DNA from: Escherichia phage vB_EcoM_G53
Sequence record: MK327943.1
Reading direction: 5' to 3' (one strand)
Length of the DNA: 64,000 nucleotides
In this document: positions 23,960-30,012 of the stretch, one piece after another
How the letters are laid out: each line of letters begins with the position of its first letter
Numbering within the stretch: position 1 is the first letter of the stretch
Notes under the pieces: generated by a model
The model's input: the letters and a program-made list of their open reading frames with translations, nothing else
The model's database searches: none
Told to the model about the DNA's origin: nothing
Translations under genes and position numbers: made by a program

Positions 23960-24139
23960 TCACATAATCTCGTTAACATACATTTGCAATTCGGTGTGGG
24001 CATCGGCCATCTTTTTCATAGCTCTGTTAATGTCGATGTCTCCATCTTCGCAACCATGAGCATTTTCCCAATCAGATACCGCATTAGCGTACTCTTCAAT
24101 CAAAAACATTAACTTAGAAATTTTTTCTTTACGTGACAT
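23960..24139 (-). CDS. Hypothetical protein (59 aa)
   Basis: Start MSRKEKISKLMF with SD GGAGAA; promoter GTTTAC-17-TATAGT just upstream. Confidence 0.45.
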   Translation of the reverse strand: MSRKEKISKLMFLIEEYANAVSDWENAHGCEDGDIDINRAMKKMADAHTELQMYVNEIM

Positions 24140-24205
24140 AACGTTCTCCTCTAGTAAGTAAGGTTTACTATAACACAACCTGAGGAGAAGTAAACTGATA
24201 GATGC

Positions 24206-24234
24206 CAAAAAGCCCCAACCATAAGGAAGGGGCT
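24206..24234 (-). terminator. Rho-independent terminator-like hairpin AGCCCC-12 nt-GGGGCT
   Basis: Minus-sense hairpin followed by TTTTTGG, downstream of the 24241-24543 gene. Confidence 0.55.
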
Positions 24235-24240
24235 AGTAAA

Positions 24241-24543
24241 TTAGATAGATGTAGGCTCTAATTTTATTTTCATGAACTCGGCAAATTGTCTGGCAGTTTT
24301 TATGCCTTGTTCATGACATTCAAATGCATCATCACAGGGACTATTTTTGTAATGCTTTGCCATATACTTATAGAATTTTTCAGAATTCTCGACATTTTGA
24401 ATTTCAAACAAAGTATATACGTTTTTAATCCCTGATTCCATAAAGTTATCAAAATATGGGTCGATATGTGCAGTACCAACGATAGGAGTTGTTGCTGCAA
24501 AAAACCCCAGCATCGCTATGACAGCTATCGCTCTTAAGGCCAT
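24241..24543 (-). CDS. Hypothetical protein with N-terminal signal/membrane helix
   Basis: 100 aa; MALRAIAVIAMLGFFAATTPIVGTA hydrophobic N-terminus. Confidence 0.55.
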   Translation of the reverse strand: MALRAIAVIAMLGFFAATTPIVGTAHIDPYFDNFMESGIKNVYTLFEIQNVENSEKFYKYMAKHYKNSPCDDAFECHEQGIKTARQFAEFMKIKLEPTSI

Positions 24544-24555
24544 ATAGGCCTCCTG

Positions 24556-24768
24556 TTAATTTTGGCCAGTATTTATTTTTCGCCTTTGGACGGCCTTAAC
24601 ATCTGTGAGGTATTTTTCCAGCTTGCGCTTGCGTGTATAATCAGCTTTAGAACCGGTTTGACGGATATCCTCGTTTAAATGAGAAATAGAATGTCCTAAT
24701 TCTCTTCGGATTTCATCTAATTGGGTTACAGTAAGATTACGAAGTTGTCTTTCGTTTAATTGCTGCAT
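24556..24768 (-). CDS. Hypothetical basic protein
   Basis: 70-aa ORF, Arg/Lys-rich. Confidence 0.5.
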
Positions 24769-24795
24769 ATATACCTCTTGGTTAGATATTAGTAT

Positions 24796-25377
24796 TTATA
24801 ACAACCCTGTCAAATCATTCCAATGCTTCCGGCATAATGACACATATCTATCGGTATCACCAATTTCAATTTGACTGCCATCTGTAATTGGAAGTCCGTC
24901 TTCCGTGACTCTAGCTACCATTGTGGCCTTTTTACCACAATGACAGACACCTTTAAGTTCAACAAGCTTATCGGCAATAGCCATTAATGCTTGAGAACCT
25001 TCAAATAGATTACCTTTAAAATCTGTTCGTAGTCCATATGCCATTACCGGCACATTGTACACGTCAACAATACGACTAAGTTGATACACCTTTTCAGTAG
25101 TTAAGAACTGAGCTTCGTCAACAAATACACAATGAATATCCTTTTGTGCTGCAGCCCATTTATAAAATTCAAAGATATCCATGTCTTTTGTAATTATATT
25201 GGCATCCTGACGAATACCAATACGAGAGACTATTTCACCTTTTGAATCGCGAGTATCAATAGCCGGTTTAAGAACTAATACACCCATGCCACGTTCTTTA
25301 TAGTTATGTGCGGCAGTAAGTAATGAAGCAGACTTACCAGCGTTCATAGCGGCATAGGTAAAAATTAAACTAGCCAT
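24796..25377 (-). CDS. tk: Thymidine kinase
   Basis: 193 aa; P-loop AAMNAGKSASL, VFVDEAQF Walker B, C-terminal Cys cluster; same length as T4 Tk. Confidence 0.92.
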   Translation of the reverse strand: MASLIFTYAAMNAGKSASLLTAAHNYKERGMGVLVLKPAIDTRDSKGEIVSRIGIRQDANIITKDMDIFEFYKWAAAQKDIHCVFVDEAQFLTTEKVYQLSRIVDVYNVPVMAYGLRTDFKGNLFEGSQALMAIADKLVELKGVCHCGKKATMVARVTEDGLPITDGSQIEIGDTDRYVSLCRKHWNDLTGLL

Positions 25378-25386
25378 AAGAGTCCC

Positions 25387-25569
25387 TTATAGTGAATTCA
25401 CGTAGTCAATGAGTTCTTGTTCTTTCCTGTCAAATGATTCCAACAATGCTTGATATTCTTCGTCTGTTAAAGGAGCATATTCATCGTACGCATTGGTGGC
25501 TGCTTGCTCATCCAATAGGTCATGGATAAGTTCGAACAGTTTAGTTTTCTCTTCTTTAGTCAATTTCAT
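25387..25569 (-). CDS. Hypothetical acidic protein
   Basis: 60-aa ORF. Confidence 0.45.
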   Translation of the reverse strand: MKLTKEEKTKLFELIHDLLDEQAATNAYDEYAPLTDEEYQALLESFDRKEQELIDYVNSL

Positions 25570-25793
25570 TTAGGTTCACCTTCTTTAACGAAATCTGGGT
25601 AAGGGTAAAATCCTGAGTAAAACCCTTCACCTTTATGATTGCTACAACCTTTGTTCGAACAGTAACACCAATAATCAAAATCACAAGCCATTTCGTCATT
25701 GCATAAAGCAAAAACTACAGGCCATTCGCATTTTTCGCATTTAGCACCTGTAAGAATTTTTGTTTGACTCATAGCCATGTCACCTTTAAGCAA
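25566..25793 (-). CDS. Cys-rich small protein
   Basis: 75 aa with 11 Cys (CEKCEW, CNDEMAC, CYCSNKGC); putative metal-binding. Confidence 0.5.
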   Translation of the reverse strand: MLKGDMAMSQTKILTGAKCEKCEWPVVFALCNDEMACDFDYWCYCSNKGCSNHKGEGFYSGFYPYPDFVKEGEPK

Positions 25794-25981
25794 TATTCTT
25801 CTACATGTTGTTTACGGCCTTTCTTATCAATAAAGGTATATTCAACGAATGTTCCGATGTAGTCTTTATCTACATCATGTGGACTATTAATTGGACATTT
25901 GGTACGACAAATGCGTTCCCATTGACGAATAATTACTGCCTTATTCTTTGGGTCATATGGATGTGGATAATGTATATTCAT
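25769..25981 (-). CDS. Hypothetical protein
   Basis: 70 aa from MNIHYPHPYD, adjacent to the macro-domain gene stop. Confidence 0.45.
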   Translation of the reverse strand: MNIHYPHPYDPKNKAVIIRQWERICRTKCPINSPHDVDKDYIGTFVEYTFIDKKGRKQHVEEYCLKVTWL

Positions 25982-26445
25982 AATAACGGTTCCCAATCAA
26001 CAATCACAATTTCTAGTTTAGTAGAATACGTATCTAAAATCTCTTCGATGACATCCCAGTTTCCACCACCAATACCTGCACCAATTCTTGGCATATAAAT
26101 TACAGGCTTTATTATCTTATTCTTTCCGAATTCATTTAATTCTATTATACAATTCATTAAAGCAGAGTACTCAAAATTAGGTCCCGGCTCAAACTGTGTA
26201 TAAAGATTAAAGCAATAAGCTTTATGGGTCTTAAAATATTTTTCATAAACCGAATAAGTCCCGAGTTTAGACTCGTCTCCGAATTCGGTTTGAAGTTTAT
26301 CGGCTTCCAGAATTTTTGGATAAGCCTTTGCTAATTGTCCTGCCACACCCGCGCCCATTGTATGAAAACAATTACACCCATGAGCAATATTATTACCTTT
26401 AGAAAACAGGGCGACAATATCGCCCTTGATATAGTTTTTAATCAC
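25978..26445 (-). CDS. Macro-domain protein (ADP-ribose binding/processing fold)
   Basis: NNIAHGCNCFHTMGAGVAGQLAKAY and PRIGAGIGGGNW resemble the two glycine-rich macro-domain motifs; start probably GTG at 26445 (SD GAGGA), since the track start at 26475 is a TTG. Confidence 0.6.
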   Translation of the reverse strand: MIKNYIKGDIVALFSKGNNIAHGCNCFHTMGAGVAGQLAKAYPKILEADKLQTEFGDESKLGTYSVYEKYFKTHKAYCFNLYTQFEPGPNFEYSALMNCIIELNEFGKNKIIKPVIYMPRIGAGIGGGNWDVIEEILDTYSTKLEIVIVDWEPLL

Positions 26446-26785
26446 TTGCTGCAAGTCCTCTATTATAAGAGTCAACTAGACGGTCCACCATAGAATTGCA
26501 TGCTGCCTTATCTTTAGGTTCCGCCACCGAGCATTCTAATATTTGCCATTTTTTATAGTATCTTTTAATTAAGGTAGACGCCTTGAACCTACTAGACGCC
26601 CCGTCTTTTTCTCCGTCTTTATACGCATATAACAATTTTTGTGAAAAATCTACTTTACACTCTTGACTTTTACCACAGTAATCAGACGCCGTTCTGTTTG
26701 TATACTCCGTTACATCAGTATATGTAGTATTAGCAAGAGCGTTAAATGAAACCAAGCCAACTATTAAAGCCAACATTTTGGTCAT
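26438..26785 (-). CDS. Secreted/periplasmic hypothetical protein (signal peptide predicted)
   Basis: 115 aa; MTKMLALIVGLVSFNALA signal-like N-terminus; four Cys. Confidence 0.55.
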   Translation of the reverse strand: MTKMLALIVGLVSFNALANTTYTDVTEYTNRTASDYCGKSQECKVDFSQKLLYAYKDGEKDGASSRFKASTLIKRYYKKWQILECSVAEPKDKAACNSMVDRLVDSYNRGLAASD

Positions 26786-27324
26786 TCTTTTATTTCCAGT
26801 AGTTTATTTGATTTAAGGTAATTAGCCTTTTCTAGGACTTCAGAAGCATATTTACTTCCGGCACTTGTCTTCCATCCCGCATTATATGAGGATATAGCTT
26901 TTCTTATATCCCCGTTATGTATATTTAACCAATAAGAAAATTCGATATAAGCCCATCTGGCTGAATTAGACCGCTTAGATAGCATTTTCTTAATTTGGGC
27001 ATCAGTCATATTATAACCAAGTTGGTTAATTCTTGCCCTCATTGTTGGTAGATAATTTTGGAACATTCCATACGCATGGTGACCTTTCTTATCTTTAAGA
27101 TTAATACCGGCAGATGATTCCTGCCATAGTATTGCGGCCATTATGTATCCAAGTCCTTTCTTATGCATATTTTCATGCGTTTTAAATTTTCCATCCTTAG
27201 AAAACTGTTCCCCAAACTGATAAGCATAATTCAAGTTATCGAGTTGGACATTACTAAAAGTATGCTCGGAGCTATGTGCTGATAACGAAAGAGCAAATAG
27301 ACCAGCGAGTAGTGCTTTTCTCAT
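26782..27324 (-). CDS. Periplasmic lytic transglycosylase-like protein (SLT domain) with signal peptide
   Basis: 180 aa; MRKALLAGLFALSLSAHS signal peptide; WQESS, YGMFQ and SYNAG resemble the E-S, GLMQ and AYNAG motifs of SLT-family enzymes. Confidence 0.6.
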   Translation of the reverse strand: MRKALLAGLFALSLSAHSSEHTFSNVQLDNLNYAYQFGEQFSKDGKFKTHENMHKKGLGYIMAAILWQESSAGINLKDKKGHHAYGMFQNYLPTMRARINQLGYNMTDAQIKKMLSKRSNSARWAYIEFSYWLNIHNGDIRKAISSYNAGWKTSAGSKYASEVLEKANYLKSNKLLEIKE

Positions 27325-27332
27325 GTTTACCT

Positions 27333-27791
27333 CTAGATTTTAATCACTGCTTTAGAAGCTTTTCCTGGTAGTCGTTTACTGTTAATAATAGCCATTCTAC
27401 ATCGAAGAGTCTTCATTTTGAATGCCGGATTTTCGCGACAAACTGTAAGTCCTAACCAAAGATTTCCGTCAGTTATTTCTAAACGGCCTGGACGATACTC
27501 GACACCTTCGACAAAATCTTCATCAACATCTGGACGTGCCGGCATTGATAAAAATTCTGCAACTTCTTTAACGTGATTTTTTACTTTATGAAATAATTCA
27601 AAAACGTAATTCTCATCTATTTCTCTCTGGATGGCACGATCTAAGAGATGTTGAGAATACTTGATATGAAAGCCTGGTAGTCCAAGAGACTTTGCAGCAT
27701 CTTTTATACCGGCATTTATTTTGCGGAACTCCGTTTCAAAGATTCGACGGAGTTTATTACGGCGGATAAAAACTTCCGAATTGATAGTCAT
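27333..27791 (-). CDS. regB: RegB endoribonuclease
   Basis: 152 aa MTINSEVFIRRNKLRRIFETEFRKIN...HLLDRAIQREIDENYVFELFHK... closely matches T4 RegB. Confidence 0.9.
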   Translation of the reverse strand: MTINSEVFIRRNKLRRIFETEFRKINAGIKDAAKSLGLPGFHIKYSQHLLDRAIQREIDENYVFELFHKVKNHVKEVAEFLSMPARPDVDEDFVEGVEYRPGRLEITDGNLWLGLTVCRENPAFKMKTLRCRMAIINSKRLPGKASKAVIKI

Positions 27792-27847
27792 TTTGATTTC
27801 TCCTCTAGTTGACAAGTCTATAGTAACACAACTAGAGGAGAAGTAAA

Positions 27848-28147
27848 CTACTCTTTGAAAGGAATTAACTTTTTAACTGCTTTAGATACTTCGTCACGAA
27901 CCTGATGGAAGTTCTTGAGCTGTTCAAGGCGTTGTTCGTAATACGCAATCTCATCTTCTTCAAGACAATCGTCAGCGTCTTCTTTCAGATATGCCTTGTA
28001 CTCATTAAAGAGGGCCCATAGGCGGTTCTCAAAGTCATCAAGGCTTTGAATTTTCTTGTGCTTCGGAACAAGGCCAAAAGGATTGCTTTCAGTTATGCGT
28101 CTAGATGCTTCATAATGAGTTCCAAAGCCTGATAGGATTTGAGCCAT
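27848..28147 (-). CDS. Hypothetical acidic protein
   Basis: 99-aa ORF. Confidence 0.5.
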
Positions 28148-28413
28148 TAGTATTTTTCCTCAGGTCGAAATACCGCACGACATGCCCACATGCTGGCTTC
28201 TTTTAGATGTTGCTTAGCATACTTAAGAGCCTGCACTGCATCCATATCTTCTTTGGTTTGTTGCTCTGTTTCATTTTCTTTCAAGATATATGCTTCTTCA
28301 ATCAGAGCATCAAACAACAATCCAAGACGGACTTCTGCATCTTTAATAGCGTTCACTTTACCGATTTTATCATCGGTATGCGGCTTGTAGCCTTTGATGT
28401 CTTCAATCGACAT
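28147..28413 (-). CDS. Hypothetical protein
   Basis: 88 aa from [18 protein letters not shown] with SD GAGGAAA; the longer track ORF overlaps the upstream gene. Confidence 0.45.
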
Positions 28414-28627
28414 AAGGAATTTCCTCATCTGTGGCAAGGTCATATTCGACCAATTGGATAGGCTCATTAATACCATATCCACGTACAGTGATATCAGTTG
28501 TCGGATAGTTTCCAGTAATATCACCCATTCTAAATGATTCAGTGAATGATTGCTCGCCTGAGCAACTAAACCAGGCGGCAAAACATTTTAAAACATCTTC
28601 AGACCCTTCTATAATCAATTTAGCCAT
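28403..28627 (-). CDS. Hypothetical acidic protein
   Basis: 74-aa ORF. Confidence 0.45.
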   Translation of the reverse strand: MAKLIIEGSEDVLKCFAAWFSCSGEQSFTESFRMGDITGNYPTTDITVRGYGINEPIQLVEYDLATDEEIPYVD

Positions 28628-28989
28628 TATAGACTCTCAGTAAAGGTGCGAGCGATAACGTCACGCTGCTGTTCCGGAGTCAGAGAGTTAAAGCGAACTG
28701 CATAACCGGATACACGGATGGTCAGCTGCGGATATTTTTCCGGATGCTTAACTGCATCTTCCAGAGTTTCACGACGCAGAACGTTAACGTTCAGGTGTTG
28801 ACCACCTTCAATTTTAACTTTAGGTTGATGTTCAATTTCAATTTCACGGGCATTCAAACCGTAGAAAATTTCCGGGTCTACAATAGCGTCTTCTTTAAAA
28901 GTCTTAGAGACAATAATCCGGGCTTGAGTACCGTCTTCAAAATAAATAGTGCCTTTATGTGCACCTTCAAGAATTTGATATGCTTTCAT
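28627..28989 (-). CDS. Glycyl-radical cofactor protein (GrcA/YfiD-like)
   Basis: 120 aa; the C-terminal ~60 aa ([59 protein letters not shown]) carry the RVSGY glycyl-radical motif and match my recollection of enterobacterial GrcA. Confidence 0.8.
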
Positions 28990-28995
28990 ATAACC

Positions 28996-29304
28996 TCAAT
29001 TAGAAAATAAATTTATCCAAGTTTTTTCTTTAATCAAAAATGGGTCGGAATTAAACGCCATTAAACTTTGAGTGATTAATCCCTTAAATGGCCCATCAAT
29101 AAATTCCATTTTGAAATGTGGAATACTAGTCATCAACCGTGCATTAGGAGCAGTACAAAGAACCTGCTGCCCTGCGAACGGACCTTTAGTCAAACGATAT
29201 CGTTTAGGTTTAAAATGGTAAATCTCGTAATTTTCTACAAGGGCCCTTTTATTGCATACTGGGCTGTTATAACAATATTCAAAAACTTCAATAGTGGTCA
29301 TCAT
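28996..29304 (-). CDS. Hypothetical protein
   Basis: 102-aa ORF. Confidence 0.5.
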   Translation of the reverse strand: MMTTIEVFEYCYNSPVCNKRALVENYEIYHFKPKRYRLTKGPFAGQQVLCTAPNARLMTSIPHFKMEFIDGPFKGLITQSLMAFNSDPFLIKEKTWINLFSN

Positions 29305-29840
29305 TGCATTCCAATCACAAAAAATTGAGGACGAGCATTACCGCCGATGCAATATTTGCTTTTGCAACAGTGTTGGACTGTTTTAATATGTACATTGTAA
29401 ATCTTATCCATATCAGGAGCTTTAATAGGCTCGTCAATTATATACAGAATACGAGAAAGCGTTAATCCACGGAATTTAGAACCTTCATTGCCAATAAAAC
29501 TACGAACAGAATCAGTAAATAAACGGAATCGAATATCGTCGCTAGAATAACGAGAAAATTCTTTTTCAATGTTGCCAGCAGAAATTTTAGCATAAGCTGA
29601 AGTATTAGAAAGAACAATAACTGTTCCGCCATCATACAGCCAATTAGCAGCAAAGTTAGTCACAGCAATTGATTTACCTGATTGTCGGCCGCCGTCTAAA
29701 CGAAGTGTACAGTACTGCTTGAGTACGTCTTCAAATGGTGGGACATAACCGTTCTTACAAATTTCTTCTACTCTAGCATCAGAATGGTGTGTAAAAGCAT
29801 TCATCAGGGATAGATAAGGTCCAGTTAAAAATGTTCTCAT
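29301..29840 (-). CDS. P-loop protein, function unknown
   Basis: 179 aa from MRTFLTGPYL; Walker A-like DGGRQSGKS. Confidence 0.55.
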   Translation of the reverse strand: MRTFLTGPYLSLMNAFTHHSDARVEEICKNGYVPPFEDVLKQYCTLRLDGGRQSGKSIAVTNFAANWLYDGGTVIVLSNTSAYAKISAGNIEKEFSRYSSDDIRFRLFTDSVRSFIGNEGSKFRGLTLSRILYIIDEPIKAPDMDKIYNVHIKTVQHCCKSKYCIGGNARPQFFVIGMQ

Positions 29841-30012
29841 ATTATTTCTCTTAAGGTTGGGGCCATTCCGTGGCACATGTTAGGTCCTTCGACTCGCTAT
29901 GTAAACCCATTACCGCATTGCGCTCGACCTTATTACAGGTTGGAAAAGGTACATCACTCAGAGGACTCGACGTTCATGAGGAGAGGTTGCGTTTCCCTTT
30001 ATTAGGCAAGAA

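What the first reader, a model, noticed from the sequence alone, without database searches (positions are those of the whole stretch)
25978..26475. Macro-domain protein in the tk-to-regB early region, with a probable GTG start
The motifs NNIAHGCNCFHTMGAGVAGQ and PRIGAGIGGGNW resemble the two Gly-rich macro-domain signatures. Phage macro domains can remove ADP-ribose marks or degrade ADP-ribose-derived signals, so this is a plausible anti-defence or host-takeover gene. The track start codon at 26475 is a TTG; a GTG at 26445 with SD GAGGA looks like the real start.
Basis: partly seen in the sequence, partly recalled or inferred. Interest (0 to 1): 0.55.

Follow-up and report, generated by a model that had tools for sequence, protein, structure and literature searches.

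The report
Known phage macrodomain gene tk.4/adfM
This is the already-annotated copy, in a T4-like coliphage, of phage T4 gene tk.4 (recently renamed adfM), a small ADP-ribose-removing "macrodomain" enzyme that in T4 protects the phage from the bacterial DarTG2 defence system, so the finding is correct but ordinary.

Summary
The ORF at 25978..26475 (minus strand) carries both quoted motifs and is a macrodomain: Pfam Macro scores above its cut-off, the AlphaFold2 model has pLDDT 95.8, and the top Foldseek hits are TARG1, Poa1p, DarG and BT1257.

The GTG start at 26445 is also right. It is the start used in the public records. In T4, JS98 and other relatives it aligns with an ATG that has an in-frame stop just upstream.

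The window is 100% identical over the stretch compared (25700-26800) to Escherichia phage APCEc01. The gene is APCEc01_191, labelled "phosphatase" or "macro domain protein". It is 85% identical to T4 Tk.4, whose A1pp/macro match is already noted in the T4 RefSeq record and in a 2006 comparative paper. A 2025 preprint showed that deleting T4 tk.4 sensitises T4 to DarTG2 and renamed the gene adfM.

Most likely it removes DarT2-added ADP-ribose from thymidines in phage DNA. That is inferred, not tested for this phage.

Two things are new here:
- The family has an invariant Gln where DarG and TARG1 have their catalytic Lys, as in SCO6735 and unlike PhiKZ "AdfM".
- A hairpin at codons 7-13 is kept by compensatory base changes across several phage genera.

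Novelty: already known. Interest: low.

The parts
25978..26445 (-). tk.4/adfM coding sequence, 155 aa, from the GTG start to the TGA stop at 25980..25978. Equals APCEc01_191.
   Evidence: The RefSeq and GenBank CDS map to these coordinates. It is 85% identical over all 155 residues to T4 Tk.4. dN/dS against T4 is 0.06.
26443..26445 (-). GTG start codon. It overlaps the end of vs: GTGATTAA contains the vs stop TAA at 26440..26438.
   Evidence: T4, ECML-134, JS98, IME540 and Klebsiella phage Wolf_ER13 have ATG at this aligned position with an in-frame stop directly upstream. Two other orthologues (L034, L057) also use GTG here.
26456..26460 (-). Shine-Dalgarno-like GAGGA, 10 nt upstream of the GTG.
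   Evidence: Read from the sequence. T4 has the same GAGGA, 11 nt upstream of its ATG.
26473..26475 (-). TTG of the longest ORF, rejected as the start.
   Evidence: The 10 extra codons are open only in the Mosigvirus-type sequences and are closed by a stop in all other orthologues examined. Beta-strand 1 of the model begins at residue 2 of the 155-aa form.
26335..26394 (-). Loop-1 region NNIAHGCNCFHTMGAGVAGQ, containing His22, Asn25 (26371..26373) and the first Gly-rich ADP-ribose-binding loop.
   Evidence: Across 112 homologues: H22 in 110/112, N25 in 111/112, C26 and G33 in 112/112. N25 aligns with DarG N22, SCO6735 N27 and PhiKZ gp104 N23.
26194..26196 (-). Codon CAG for Gln84, at the position of the catalytic Lys of TARG1 (K84) and DarG (K80).
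   Evidence: Q84 is invariant in 112/112 homologues. It aligns with TARG1 K84, DarG K80, PhiKZ gp104 K78 and SCO6735 Gln85.
26056..26091 (-). Loop-2 region PRIGAGIGGGNW, the second Gly-rich, diphosphate-binding loop.
   Evidence: P119, G122 and G124 are invariant and W130 is present in 111/112. The position of TARG1 D125 is Gly or Ala here.
26408..26426 (-). Conserved 8-bp GC-rich hairpin with a 3-nt loop inside codons 7-13 (AGGGCGAU AUU GUCGCCCU). Side observation; function unknown.
   Evidence: 96.5% of cells paired; two pairs show compensatory double changes; 0 of 500 shuffles reach the observed score.
26438..26785 (-). Upstream neighbour vs (valyl-tRNA synthetase modifier). Its 3' end overlaps the tk.4 start by 8 nt.
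25769..25981 (-). Downstream neighbour tk.3 (DUF7202). Its ATG overlaps the tk.4 stop as ATGA.

Best explanation
The gene is the Mosigvirus orthologue of phage T4 tk.4, also called adfM. It encodes a 155-residue stand-alone macrodomain of the ALC1/TARG1-like class. It is translated from the GTG at 26445 and is packed between vs and tk.3 with overlapping stop and start codons.

The most likely function is a DNA ADP-ribosylglycohydrolase. The host toxin DarT2 attaches ADP-ribose to thymidines in single-stranded phage DNA and blocks replication. The phage enzyme would bind the ADP-ribose through its two Gly-rich loops and cut the ribose-thymine bond, acting as an orphan antitoxin against DarTG2.

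Its active site is of the Gln type (Gln84 with Asn25), as in Streptomyces SCO6735, and not of the Lys type found in DarG, TARG1 and PhiKZ gp104.

Shown here: the fold, the orthology, the start site, the conservation of the active-site residues and purifying selection. Taken from the literature: the T4 knock-out phenotype and the SCO6735 biochemistry. Inferred: that this protein has the same activity and role.
For: - Identity: the window is 100% identical over 25700-26800 to phage APCEc01, where the gene is annotated as phosphatase or macro domain protein.
- Orthology: 85% identity over the full length to T4 Tk.4 with the same gene order; dN/dS 0.06.
- Fold: Pfam Macro scores above its cut-off. 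The AF2 model has pLDDT 95.8. Foldseek hits are TARG1 6e-10, Poa1p 1e-9, DarG 8e-8, BT1257 and SCO6735.
- DarG relationship: the PADLOC DarG model matches at E=1.2e-9 over its macro half only.
- Function in T4: the tk.4 knock-out is sensitised to DarTG2, and tk.4 was the single significant hit in the screen (bioRxiv 10.1101/2025.11.20.689424).
- Active site: Gln84 and Asn25 are invariant or nearly so in 112 homologues and align with SCO6735 Gln85 and Asn27. SCO6735 cleaves thymidine-linked ADP-ribose on DNA; Q85A is dead and N27S nearly dead (PMC9411070).
- Breadth: the family occurs in about 2,800 phage records.
Against: - No experiment exists on this phage's protein, and no biochemistry exists on T4 Tk.4 itself; the preprint only says enzymatic removal 'seems likely'.
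- The catalytic Lys that is essential in DarG (K80A is inactive; PMC5179494) is absent.
- SCO6735's Val25 is Gly here, and SCO6735's longer DNA-binding mobile loop with Lys89 and Lys94 is missing.
- The T4 evidence is a preprint.
Confidence: 0.75

Rival explanations
1. It is a metabolite-processing macrodomain, as the legacy RefSeq name 'phosphatase' implies: a Poa1p-like ADP-ribose-1''-phosphate phosphatase or an O-acetyl-ADP-ribose deacetylase.
For: phmmer against Poa1p gives E=1.8e-8, and Foldseek gives TM 0.80. The two share an H-x-C-N-C motif: Poa1p H23 aligns with H22 and S30 with T29. JGI names relatives 'O-acetyl-ADP-ribose deacetylase'.
Against: The name comes from the old domain label A1pp, not from an assay. 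The Poa1p match covers only the N-terminal half. Poa1p has Ser where this family has its invariant Gln, and Phe152 where this family has Gly or Ala. The only phenotype known for the T4 orthologue is DarTG2-specific. From general knowledge, T4 RNA repair does not produce ADP-ribose-1''-phosphate.
Confidence: 0.08
2. It removes ADP-ribose from proteins or RNA rather than DNA. Targets could be marks made by the phage's own Alt, ModA and ModB enzymes, or marks made by other ADP-ribosyltransferase defences such as CmdTAC.
For: TARG1 is the best Foldseek hit. SCO6735 also has some activity on auto-modified PARP1 (PMC9411070).
Against: The TARG1 Lys84/Asp125 dyad is absent. CmdTAC still defends strongly against T4, which carries tk.4 (PMC11618068). 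From general knowledge, Alt and Mod marks are arginine-linked, a linkage this macrodomain class is not known to cleave. It could still be a secondary activity.
Confidence: 0.08
3. It acts without catalysis, because the catalytic Lys is missing. It would bind ADP-ribosylated DNA, free ADP-ribose or DarT2 itself, as a sponge or inhibitor.
For: Gln replaces the Lys that is essential in DarG. ALC1, which also has Gln at this position, is a binding-only macrodomain.
Against: SCO6735 has the same Gln and is a processive dT-ADPr hydrolase that needs it. The protein has no counterpart of the DarT-binding C-terminal domain of DarG. Invariance of N25, Q84 and both Gly loops fits an enzyme.
Confidence: 0.06
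4. It degrades ADP-ribose-derived immune signals, for example the cyclic ADPR isomers of Thoeris.
For: Only the general fact that macrodomains bind ADP-ribose derivatives.
Against: Tool results and the papers read gave no support. The T4 screen linked tk.4 to DarTG2.
Confidence: 0.03

Closest known systems
Phage T4 Tk.4 = AdfM (NP_049723; anti-DarT factor Macrodomain, bioRxiv 10.1101/2025.11.20.689424)
   Same: 85% identity with no gaps and the same 155-aa length. Same position between vs and tk.3 in the tk-regB block. Same conserved residues and the same 5' hairpin.
   Different: 23 substitutions. GTG instead of ATG start. An 8-nt rather than 4-nt overlap with vs. The block here lacks T4 tk.1 and carries an RB32-ORF111c-type zinc-binding ORF instead. 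The anti-DarTG2 phenotype was shown only for T4.
DarG antitoxin of DarTG2 (TaqDarG 5M31/5M3E, MtbDarG 5M3I; NCBIfam NF048014)
   Same: Macro fold (Foldseek E about 1e-7, TM about 0.75). The Asn of DarG N22 and both Gly-rich loops are conserved. It presumably acts on the same substrate, thymidine-linked ADP-ribose on ssDNA.
   Different: Half the size, with no C-terminal DarT-binding domain (33 bits against a cut-off of 250; genuine DarGs score 392-466 bits). Gln in place of the catalytic Lys80. No neighbouring darT gene.
Streptomyces coelicolor SCO6735 (5E3B) and Bacteroides BT1257 (2FG1/2AFC)
   Same: Gln at the Lys position plus the supporting Asn. BT1257 is the best sequence match in the PDB (7.8e-11). 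SCO6735 has been shown to cleave dT-ADPr on DNA (PMC9411070).
   Different: Only about 25-28% identity. Gly instead of Val25. The mobile loop after the Gln is 6-7 residues shorter and lacks Lys89 and Lys94.
PhiKZ gp104 'AdfM' (Cell Rep 2026, PMC13309987)
   Same: A stand-alone phage macrodomain that counteracts DarTG2. The conserved Asn (N23) aligns with N25.
   Different: It is DarG-type, with the FPTK motif and Lys78. Pairwise similarity is barely detectable (9/23 identities in one short BLASTP segment). It is imported into the phage nucleus. So the same name covers two different macrodomain subfamilies.
Human TARG1/OARD1 and yeast Poa1p
   Same: Top structural neighbours in the ALC1-like class. 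The H-x-C-N-C motif is shared with Poa1p.
   Different: The TARG1 Lys84/Asp125 dyad is absent (Gln and Gly here). Poa1p has Ser at the Gln position and a different second loop.

Membership tests
Macro domain superfamily (Pfam PF01661) | Profile score above the curated gathering threshold | tested here: met
   28.2 bits against 22, E=2e-6, covering profile positions 2-117 of 118.
Macro domain superfamily (Pfam PF01661) | Three-layer alpha/beta/alpha macro fold | tested here: met
   AF2 pLDDT 95.8 and pTM 0.91. 135 PDB matches at E<=1e-3; all 50 listed matches are macrodomains or enzymes designed on a macrodomain scaffold.
Macro domain superfamily (Pfam PF01661) | Two Gly-rich ADP-ribose/diphosphate-binding loops | tested here: met
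   MGAGVAG and PRIGAGIGGG are present. G33, G122 and G124 are invariant in 112 homologues.
Macro domain superfamily (Pfam PF01661) | Binds ADP-ribose | not testable with these tools
   Needs ITC or a co-crystal.
T4 Tk.4 / AdfM orthologous group | Full-length high identity to T4 NP_049723 | tested here: met
   132 of 155 residues identical, no gaps.
T4 Tk.4 / AdfM orthologous group | Conserved position between vs and tk.3 in the tk-regB block | tested here: met
T4 Tk.4 / AdfM orthologous group | Needed for phage growth on DarTG2-expressing hosts | not testable with these tools
   Shown only for T4.
DarG antitoxin (NCBIfam NF048014) | Full-length match including the C-terminal DarT-binding domain (cut-off 250 bits) | tested here: not met
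   33.3 bits, matching profile positions 4-146 of 338 only. Control DarGs score 466 and 392 bits.
DarG antitoxin (NCBIfam NF048014) | Catalytic lysine (TaqDarG K80) | tested here: not met
   Gln84 aligns with K80 of two DarGs.
DarG antitoxin (NCBIfam NF048014) | Adjacent darT (DUF4433) toxin gene | tested here: not met
   The neighbours are vs and tk.3/DUF7202. For contrast see L009 and L010.
SCO6735/BT1257-type Gln macrodomain hydrolases | Gln at the TARG1-K84/DarG-K80 position, held in place by an Asn (SCO6735 Q85, N27) | tested here: met
   Q84 in 112/112 and N25 in 111/112 homologues; both align exactly.
SCO6735/BT1257-type Gln macrodomain hydrolases | Val or Ile at SCO6735 position 25, and an extended mobile loop with Lys89 and Lys94 | tested here: not met
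   Gly23 in 111/112 homologues. The loop is 6-7 residues shorter.
SCO6735/BT1257-type Gln macrodomain hydrolases | Hydrolysis of thymidine-linked ADP-ribose on DNA | not testable with these tools
   Needs a gel-shift assay on a DarT2-modified oligonucleotide.
Poa1p-like ADP-ribose-1''-phosphate phosphatase | Residues probed in the Poa1p structures (H23, S30, F152) are conserved | tested here: inconclusive
   H23 aligns with H22 and is conserved. S30 aligns with T29, which is Thr in only 69/112. F152 aligns with Gly or Ala. Poa1p has Ser at the Q84 position.
TARG1-type hydrolases | Lys84/Asp125 catalytic dyad | tested here: not met
   Gln84 and Gly126 occupy those positions.

The most novel reading that the evidence does not exclude
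Two things together. First, the T4-type AdfM would be a lysine-less, Gln-type DNA ADP-ribosylglycohydrolase. Phages would have recruited it from a different macrodomain branch (BT1257/SCO6735/Poa1p-like) than the DarG-type AdfM of PhiKZ, so phages have evolved anti-DarTG2 'orphan antitoxins' at least twice, with different chemistry. Second, its mRNA would carry a covarying hairpin at codons 7-13 that controls expression of the gene.
Probability: 0.35. Interest if true: 0.4.

Novelty: already known. Interest (0 to 1): 0.2.

Why it matters
It does not change much. The gene, its macro/A1pp domain and its GTG start are all in public records, and the T4 orthologue now has a genetic function, anti-DarTG2.

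The practical value is for annotation. 'Phosphatase' and 'hypothetical protein' are out-of-date names for a very common phage gene, found in about 2,800 phage records; 'macrodomain anti-DarT factor (AdfM/Tk.4)' would be better.

Two details found here could interest specialists:
- The active site lacks the DarG/TARG1 lysine, so the enzyme's chemistry needs direct testing.
- A covarying RNA hairpin is embedded at the start of the gene.

Tried and rejected
- **TTG start at 26475.** Rejected: orthologues have an in-frame stop there.
- **TTG at 26454.** It lies 1 nt after the GAGGA, too close for a Shine-Dalgarno sequence (sequence).
- **Own promoter for the gene.** Sigma-70-like sites in 24000-30000 are no more frequent than in shuffles, 18 against 19.5 expected, so nothing can be said.
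- **Rfam.** No match in 25500-27500 even at E<=1.
- **Filing the protein as DarG.** Rejected on score, length, the missing Lys and the missing darT neighbour.
- **Hairpin as an intrinsic terminator.** The scan flagged it, but the U-tract is only the Leu-Phe codons and is weak or absent in T4, RB49-like and V5-like versions. Unlikely.
- **Hairpin as a 3' stabiliser or terminator of vs.** Rejected: the hairpin stays with tk.4 in RB49-like and V5-like loci, where no vs homologue was detected in the upstream flank, and L025 has vs but no hairpin.
- **Pairing of the Shine-Dalgarno sequence with the U-rich stretch after the hairpin.** It appears in the window's minimum-energy fold (z=-1.9, with 10 of 200 shuffles as good) but is not reproduced in T4 or JS98 folds.
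- **ArcZ pairing with tk.4 mRNA,** prompted by a T2 RIL-seq preprint. The best duplex is no better than with a shuffled ArcZ seed.
- **Plasmid search.** It found only distant macrodomain proteins, but it supplied two genuine DarTG2 loci that served as controls.

Full report
**Observation.** The ORF listing returns 25978..26475 on the minus strand, 165 aa from a TTG. Both quoted motifs are in its translation, at window 26335..26394 and 26056..26091. The TTG (26475..26473), the in-frame GTG (26445..26443) and a GAGGA (26460..26456, 10 nt upstream of the GTG) can be read directly from the sequence. Thymidine kinase (PF00265, 24796..25377) and RegB (PF10715, 27333..27791) flank the block, so the 'tk-to-regB' description is right.

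**Source of the sequence.** Window 25700-26800 is 100% identical to Escherichia phage APCEc01, a Mosigvirus of the Tevenvirinae. The gene is APCEc01_191. RefSeq annotates it as 'phosphatase', and near-identical phages annotate it as 'macro domain(-containing) protein'. It is 85% identical, without gaps and over all 155 residues, to T4 Tk.4. It occupies the same slot between vs and tk.3. The T4 RefSeq record already says 'Tk.4; contains A1pp phosphatase motif'. A 2006 comparative paper listed the A1pp match for tk.4 orthologues (PMC1524935). A1pp is the old name for the macro domain.

**Start codon.**
- The public CDS runs from 25978 to 26445, so it uses the GTG.
- I compared seven phage sequences. 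In the five outside the Mosigvirus type (T4, ECML-134, JS98, IME540 and Klebsiella phage Wolf_ER13), an ATG sits at exactly the aligned position, M-I-x-x-Y-I-K-G, with an in-frame stop codon immediately upstream.
- The 10-codon extension back to the TTG is open only in the Mosigvirus-type sequences.
- T4 has the same GAGGA at nearly the same spacing.
- Two more distant orthologues also use GTG at this position.
- Strand beta-1 of the predicted structure starts at residue 2 of the 155-aa form.
- The GTG overlaps the vs stop (GTGATTAA), and the tk.4 stop overlaps the tk.3 start (ATGA). This is typical tight packing in T4-like phages.

**Fold and family.**
- Pfam Macro scores 28.2 bits against a cut-off of 22. 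PHROG 335 matches at E=2e-66.
- With an alignment of 112 homologues, AlphaFold2 gives pLDDT 95.8 and pTM 0.91.
- Foldseek against the PDB returns TARG1 (6e-10), Poa1p (1e-9), the DarG macrodomains of Thermus and Mycobacterium (about 1e-7), BT1257 and SCO6735, followed by viral macrodomains.
- By sequence, the best PDB matches are BT1257 (7.8e-11) and Poa1p (1.8e-8). DarG and TARG1 come in near 1e-3.
- The PADLOC DarG model matches at E=1.2e-9, but only over its macro half.
- The NCBIfam DarG equivalog scores 33 bits against a cut-off of 250. Two real DarGs that sit next to DUF4433 toxin genes score 466 and 392 bits.
- The protein is therefore a stand-alone ALC1/TARG1-like macrodomain and not a DarG.

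**Active site.** I aligned the family with TARG1, Poa1p, SCO6735, BT1257, the ALC1 macrodomain, two DarGs and PhiKZ gp104. Where PDB sequences were used, they were checked against the PDB. The alignment lands on every residue that published work has mutated: TARG1 K84 and D125, DarG K80 and N22, SCO6735 V25, N27 and Q85, Poa1p H23, S30 and F152, and gp104 N23. That gives confidence in the following points.
- At the catalytic-lysine position this protein has Gln84, invariant in 112 of 112 homologues.
- The supporting Asn25 is present in 111 of 112.
- The TARG1 Asp125 position is Gly or Ala.
- SCO6735 has the same arrangement. It has been shown to cleave thymidine-linked ADP-ribose from DNA; Q85A is dead and N27S nearly dead, and a water-mediated mechanism was proposed (PMC9411070).
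- In DarG, by contrast, K80A is inactive (PMC5179494).
- This protein differs from SCO6735 in having Gly for Val25 and a shorter loop after the Gln.

**Function.** A transposon screen in T4 found tk.4 as the single significant gene needed on a DarTG2-expressing host. A clean deletion sensitised T4 to DarTG2, and the gene was renamed adfM (bioRxiv 10.1101/2025.11.20.689424). That preprint offers no biochemistry and does not mention the missing lysine. Earlier work had predicted such a factor, because T4 lacking adfA and adfN stayed resistant to DarTG2 (PMC11825919).

A separate paper gave the name AdfM to PhiKZ gp104 and showed that it removes DarT2-made ADP-ribose from DNA (PMC13309987). gp104 is a DarG-type protein with the FPTK lysine, and it is barely similar to Tk.4.

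For the protein in this window, the most likely mechanism is removal of ADP-ribose from thymidines in phage DNA, using a Gln-type site. That rests on orthology, strong purifying selection (dN/dS 0.06 against T4) and the SCO6735 precedent. It has not been tested.

**Rivals.**
- The 'phosphatase' reading rests on a domain name. The Poa1p residues other than His are not conserved.
- Reversal of RNA ADP-ribosylation is unlikely to be the main role, because CmdTAC still blocks T4 (PMC11618068).
- A non-catalytic binding role is possible because the lysine is missing, but SCO6735 argues against it.
- Degradation of ADP-ribose-derived signals has no support.

**Side observation.** The terminator scan flagged a hairpin inside the gene at 26426..26408, codons 7-13: AGGGCGAU-AUU-GUCGCCCU.
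- It is unique in the window and has no Rfam match.
- Given the peptide K-G-D-I-V-A-L and the window's codon usage, the stem-forming codons have a joint probability of about 5e-4.
- Among 80 IMG/VR loci encoding relatives, 20 keep all 8 pairs.
- Compensatory changes occur: AAA..UUR replaces AAG..CUG, and GGA..UCC replaces GGC..GCC. The second costs an Ala-to-Ser change and is seen in V5-like contigs at 41% protein identity. GAU..AUC and GAC..GUC variants also occur.
- On 18 distinct sequences, 96.5% of cells pair, against 35-66% when the partners are slid. Two pairs carry double changes, and 0 of 500 shuffles reach the observed score.
- Third positions in the loop and after the stem vary freely.
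- Orthologues whose peptide has Lys or Glu instead of Ala have no hairpin.
- The hairpin stays with tk.4 even where no vs homologue was detected upstream. Its U-tract is not conserved. It is therefore probably neither a terminator nor a vs element.
- G·U pairs on the sense strand point to an RNA-level role.
- Its function is unknown. A T2 RIL-seq preprint reports tk.4 mRNA bound with ArcZ on Hfq, but I found no complementarity better than with a shuffled ArcZ seed.

**Verdict.** The finding is accurate in all parts but describes an already annotated and recently characterised gene. Novelty: already known. Interest: low. The Gln-type active site and the embedded hairpin are modest points worth a specialist's follow-up.

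Noticed in passing
window 26408..26426, minus strand (codons 7-13 of tk.4); also L019-L037, L055-L057, L080: An 8-bp GC-rich hairpin with a 3-nt loop lies inside the 5' coding region. It is kept by compensatory substitutions across Tequatro-, Mosig-, Dhaka-, Krisch- and V5-like phages: 96.5% of cells paired, 2 pairs with double changes, 0 of 500 shuffles as good. It is absent from orthologues with K or E in place of A. Function unknown; it is probably not a terminator.
   Followed up: partly
window 26194..26196 (Gln84), compared with PhiKZ gp104 (sequence from PMC13309987): Two unrelated-looking proteins now share the name AdfM. T4-type Tk.4 has Gln at the catalytic position, and PhiKZ gp104 has the DarG-type Lys (FPTK). 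Pairwise similarity is one 23-residue BLASTP segment.
   Followed up: yes
L034 and L057, position 301: Other Tk.4 orthologues also start with GTG at the homologous position, so a GTG start has arisen more than once in this gene.
   Followed up: partly
window 27333..27815, minus strand (regB): The same longest-ORF effect occurs here. The ORF opens at a TTG at 27815, but the annotated RegB starts at the ATG at 27791, and the Pfam REGB_T4 match covers residues 3-151 of that 152-aa form.
   Followed up: partly
window 26782..27324, minus strand (vs.1); L002 2083..2625: vs.1 has a signal-peptide-like N-terminus and only a sub-threshold SLT transglycosylase match (E=1.3e-3, 18.8 bits against 21.3). 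The GenBank record of phage JK45 labels this gene 'endoribonuclease RegB', which looks like a shifted annotation.
   Followed up: no
window 25566..25772, minus strand: A small Cys-rich ORF matches Pfam Phage_zn_bind (PF23895, E=3.5e-29; RB32 ORF111c type). It sits where T4 has a different small gene. The tk.1-tk.3 stretch is therefore mosaic among T4-like phages while tk.4 is constant.
   Followed up: no
tk.4 mRNA (literature, phage T2): A 2026 preprint (10.64898/2026.06.19.733364) reports Hfq-mediated RIL-seq chimeras between T2 tk.4 mRNA and the host sRNA ArcZ, and detects Tk.4 in the proteome, unchanged in a ΔarcZ host. A duplex search with the ArcZ seed against this gene and T4 tk.4 did no better than a shuffled seed.
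   Followed up: partly
RefSeq and GenBank records of T4-like phages: Product names for this one gene range over 'phosphatase', 'macro domain protein', 'Poa1p_like family protein', 'O-acetyl-ADP-ribose deacetylase' and 'hypothetical protein'. None reflects the anti-DarTG2 role reported for T4.
   Followed up: no
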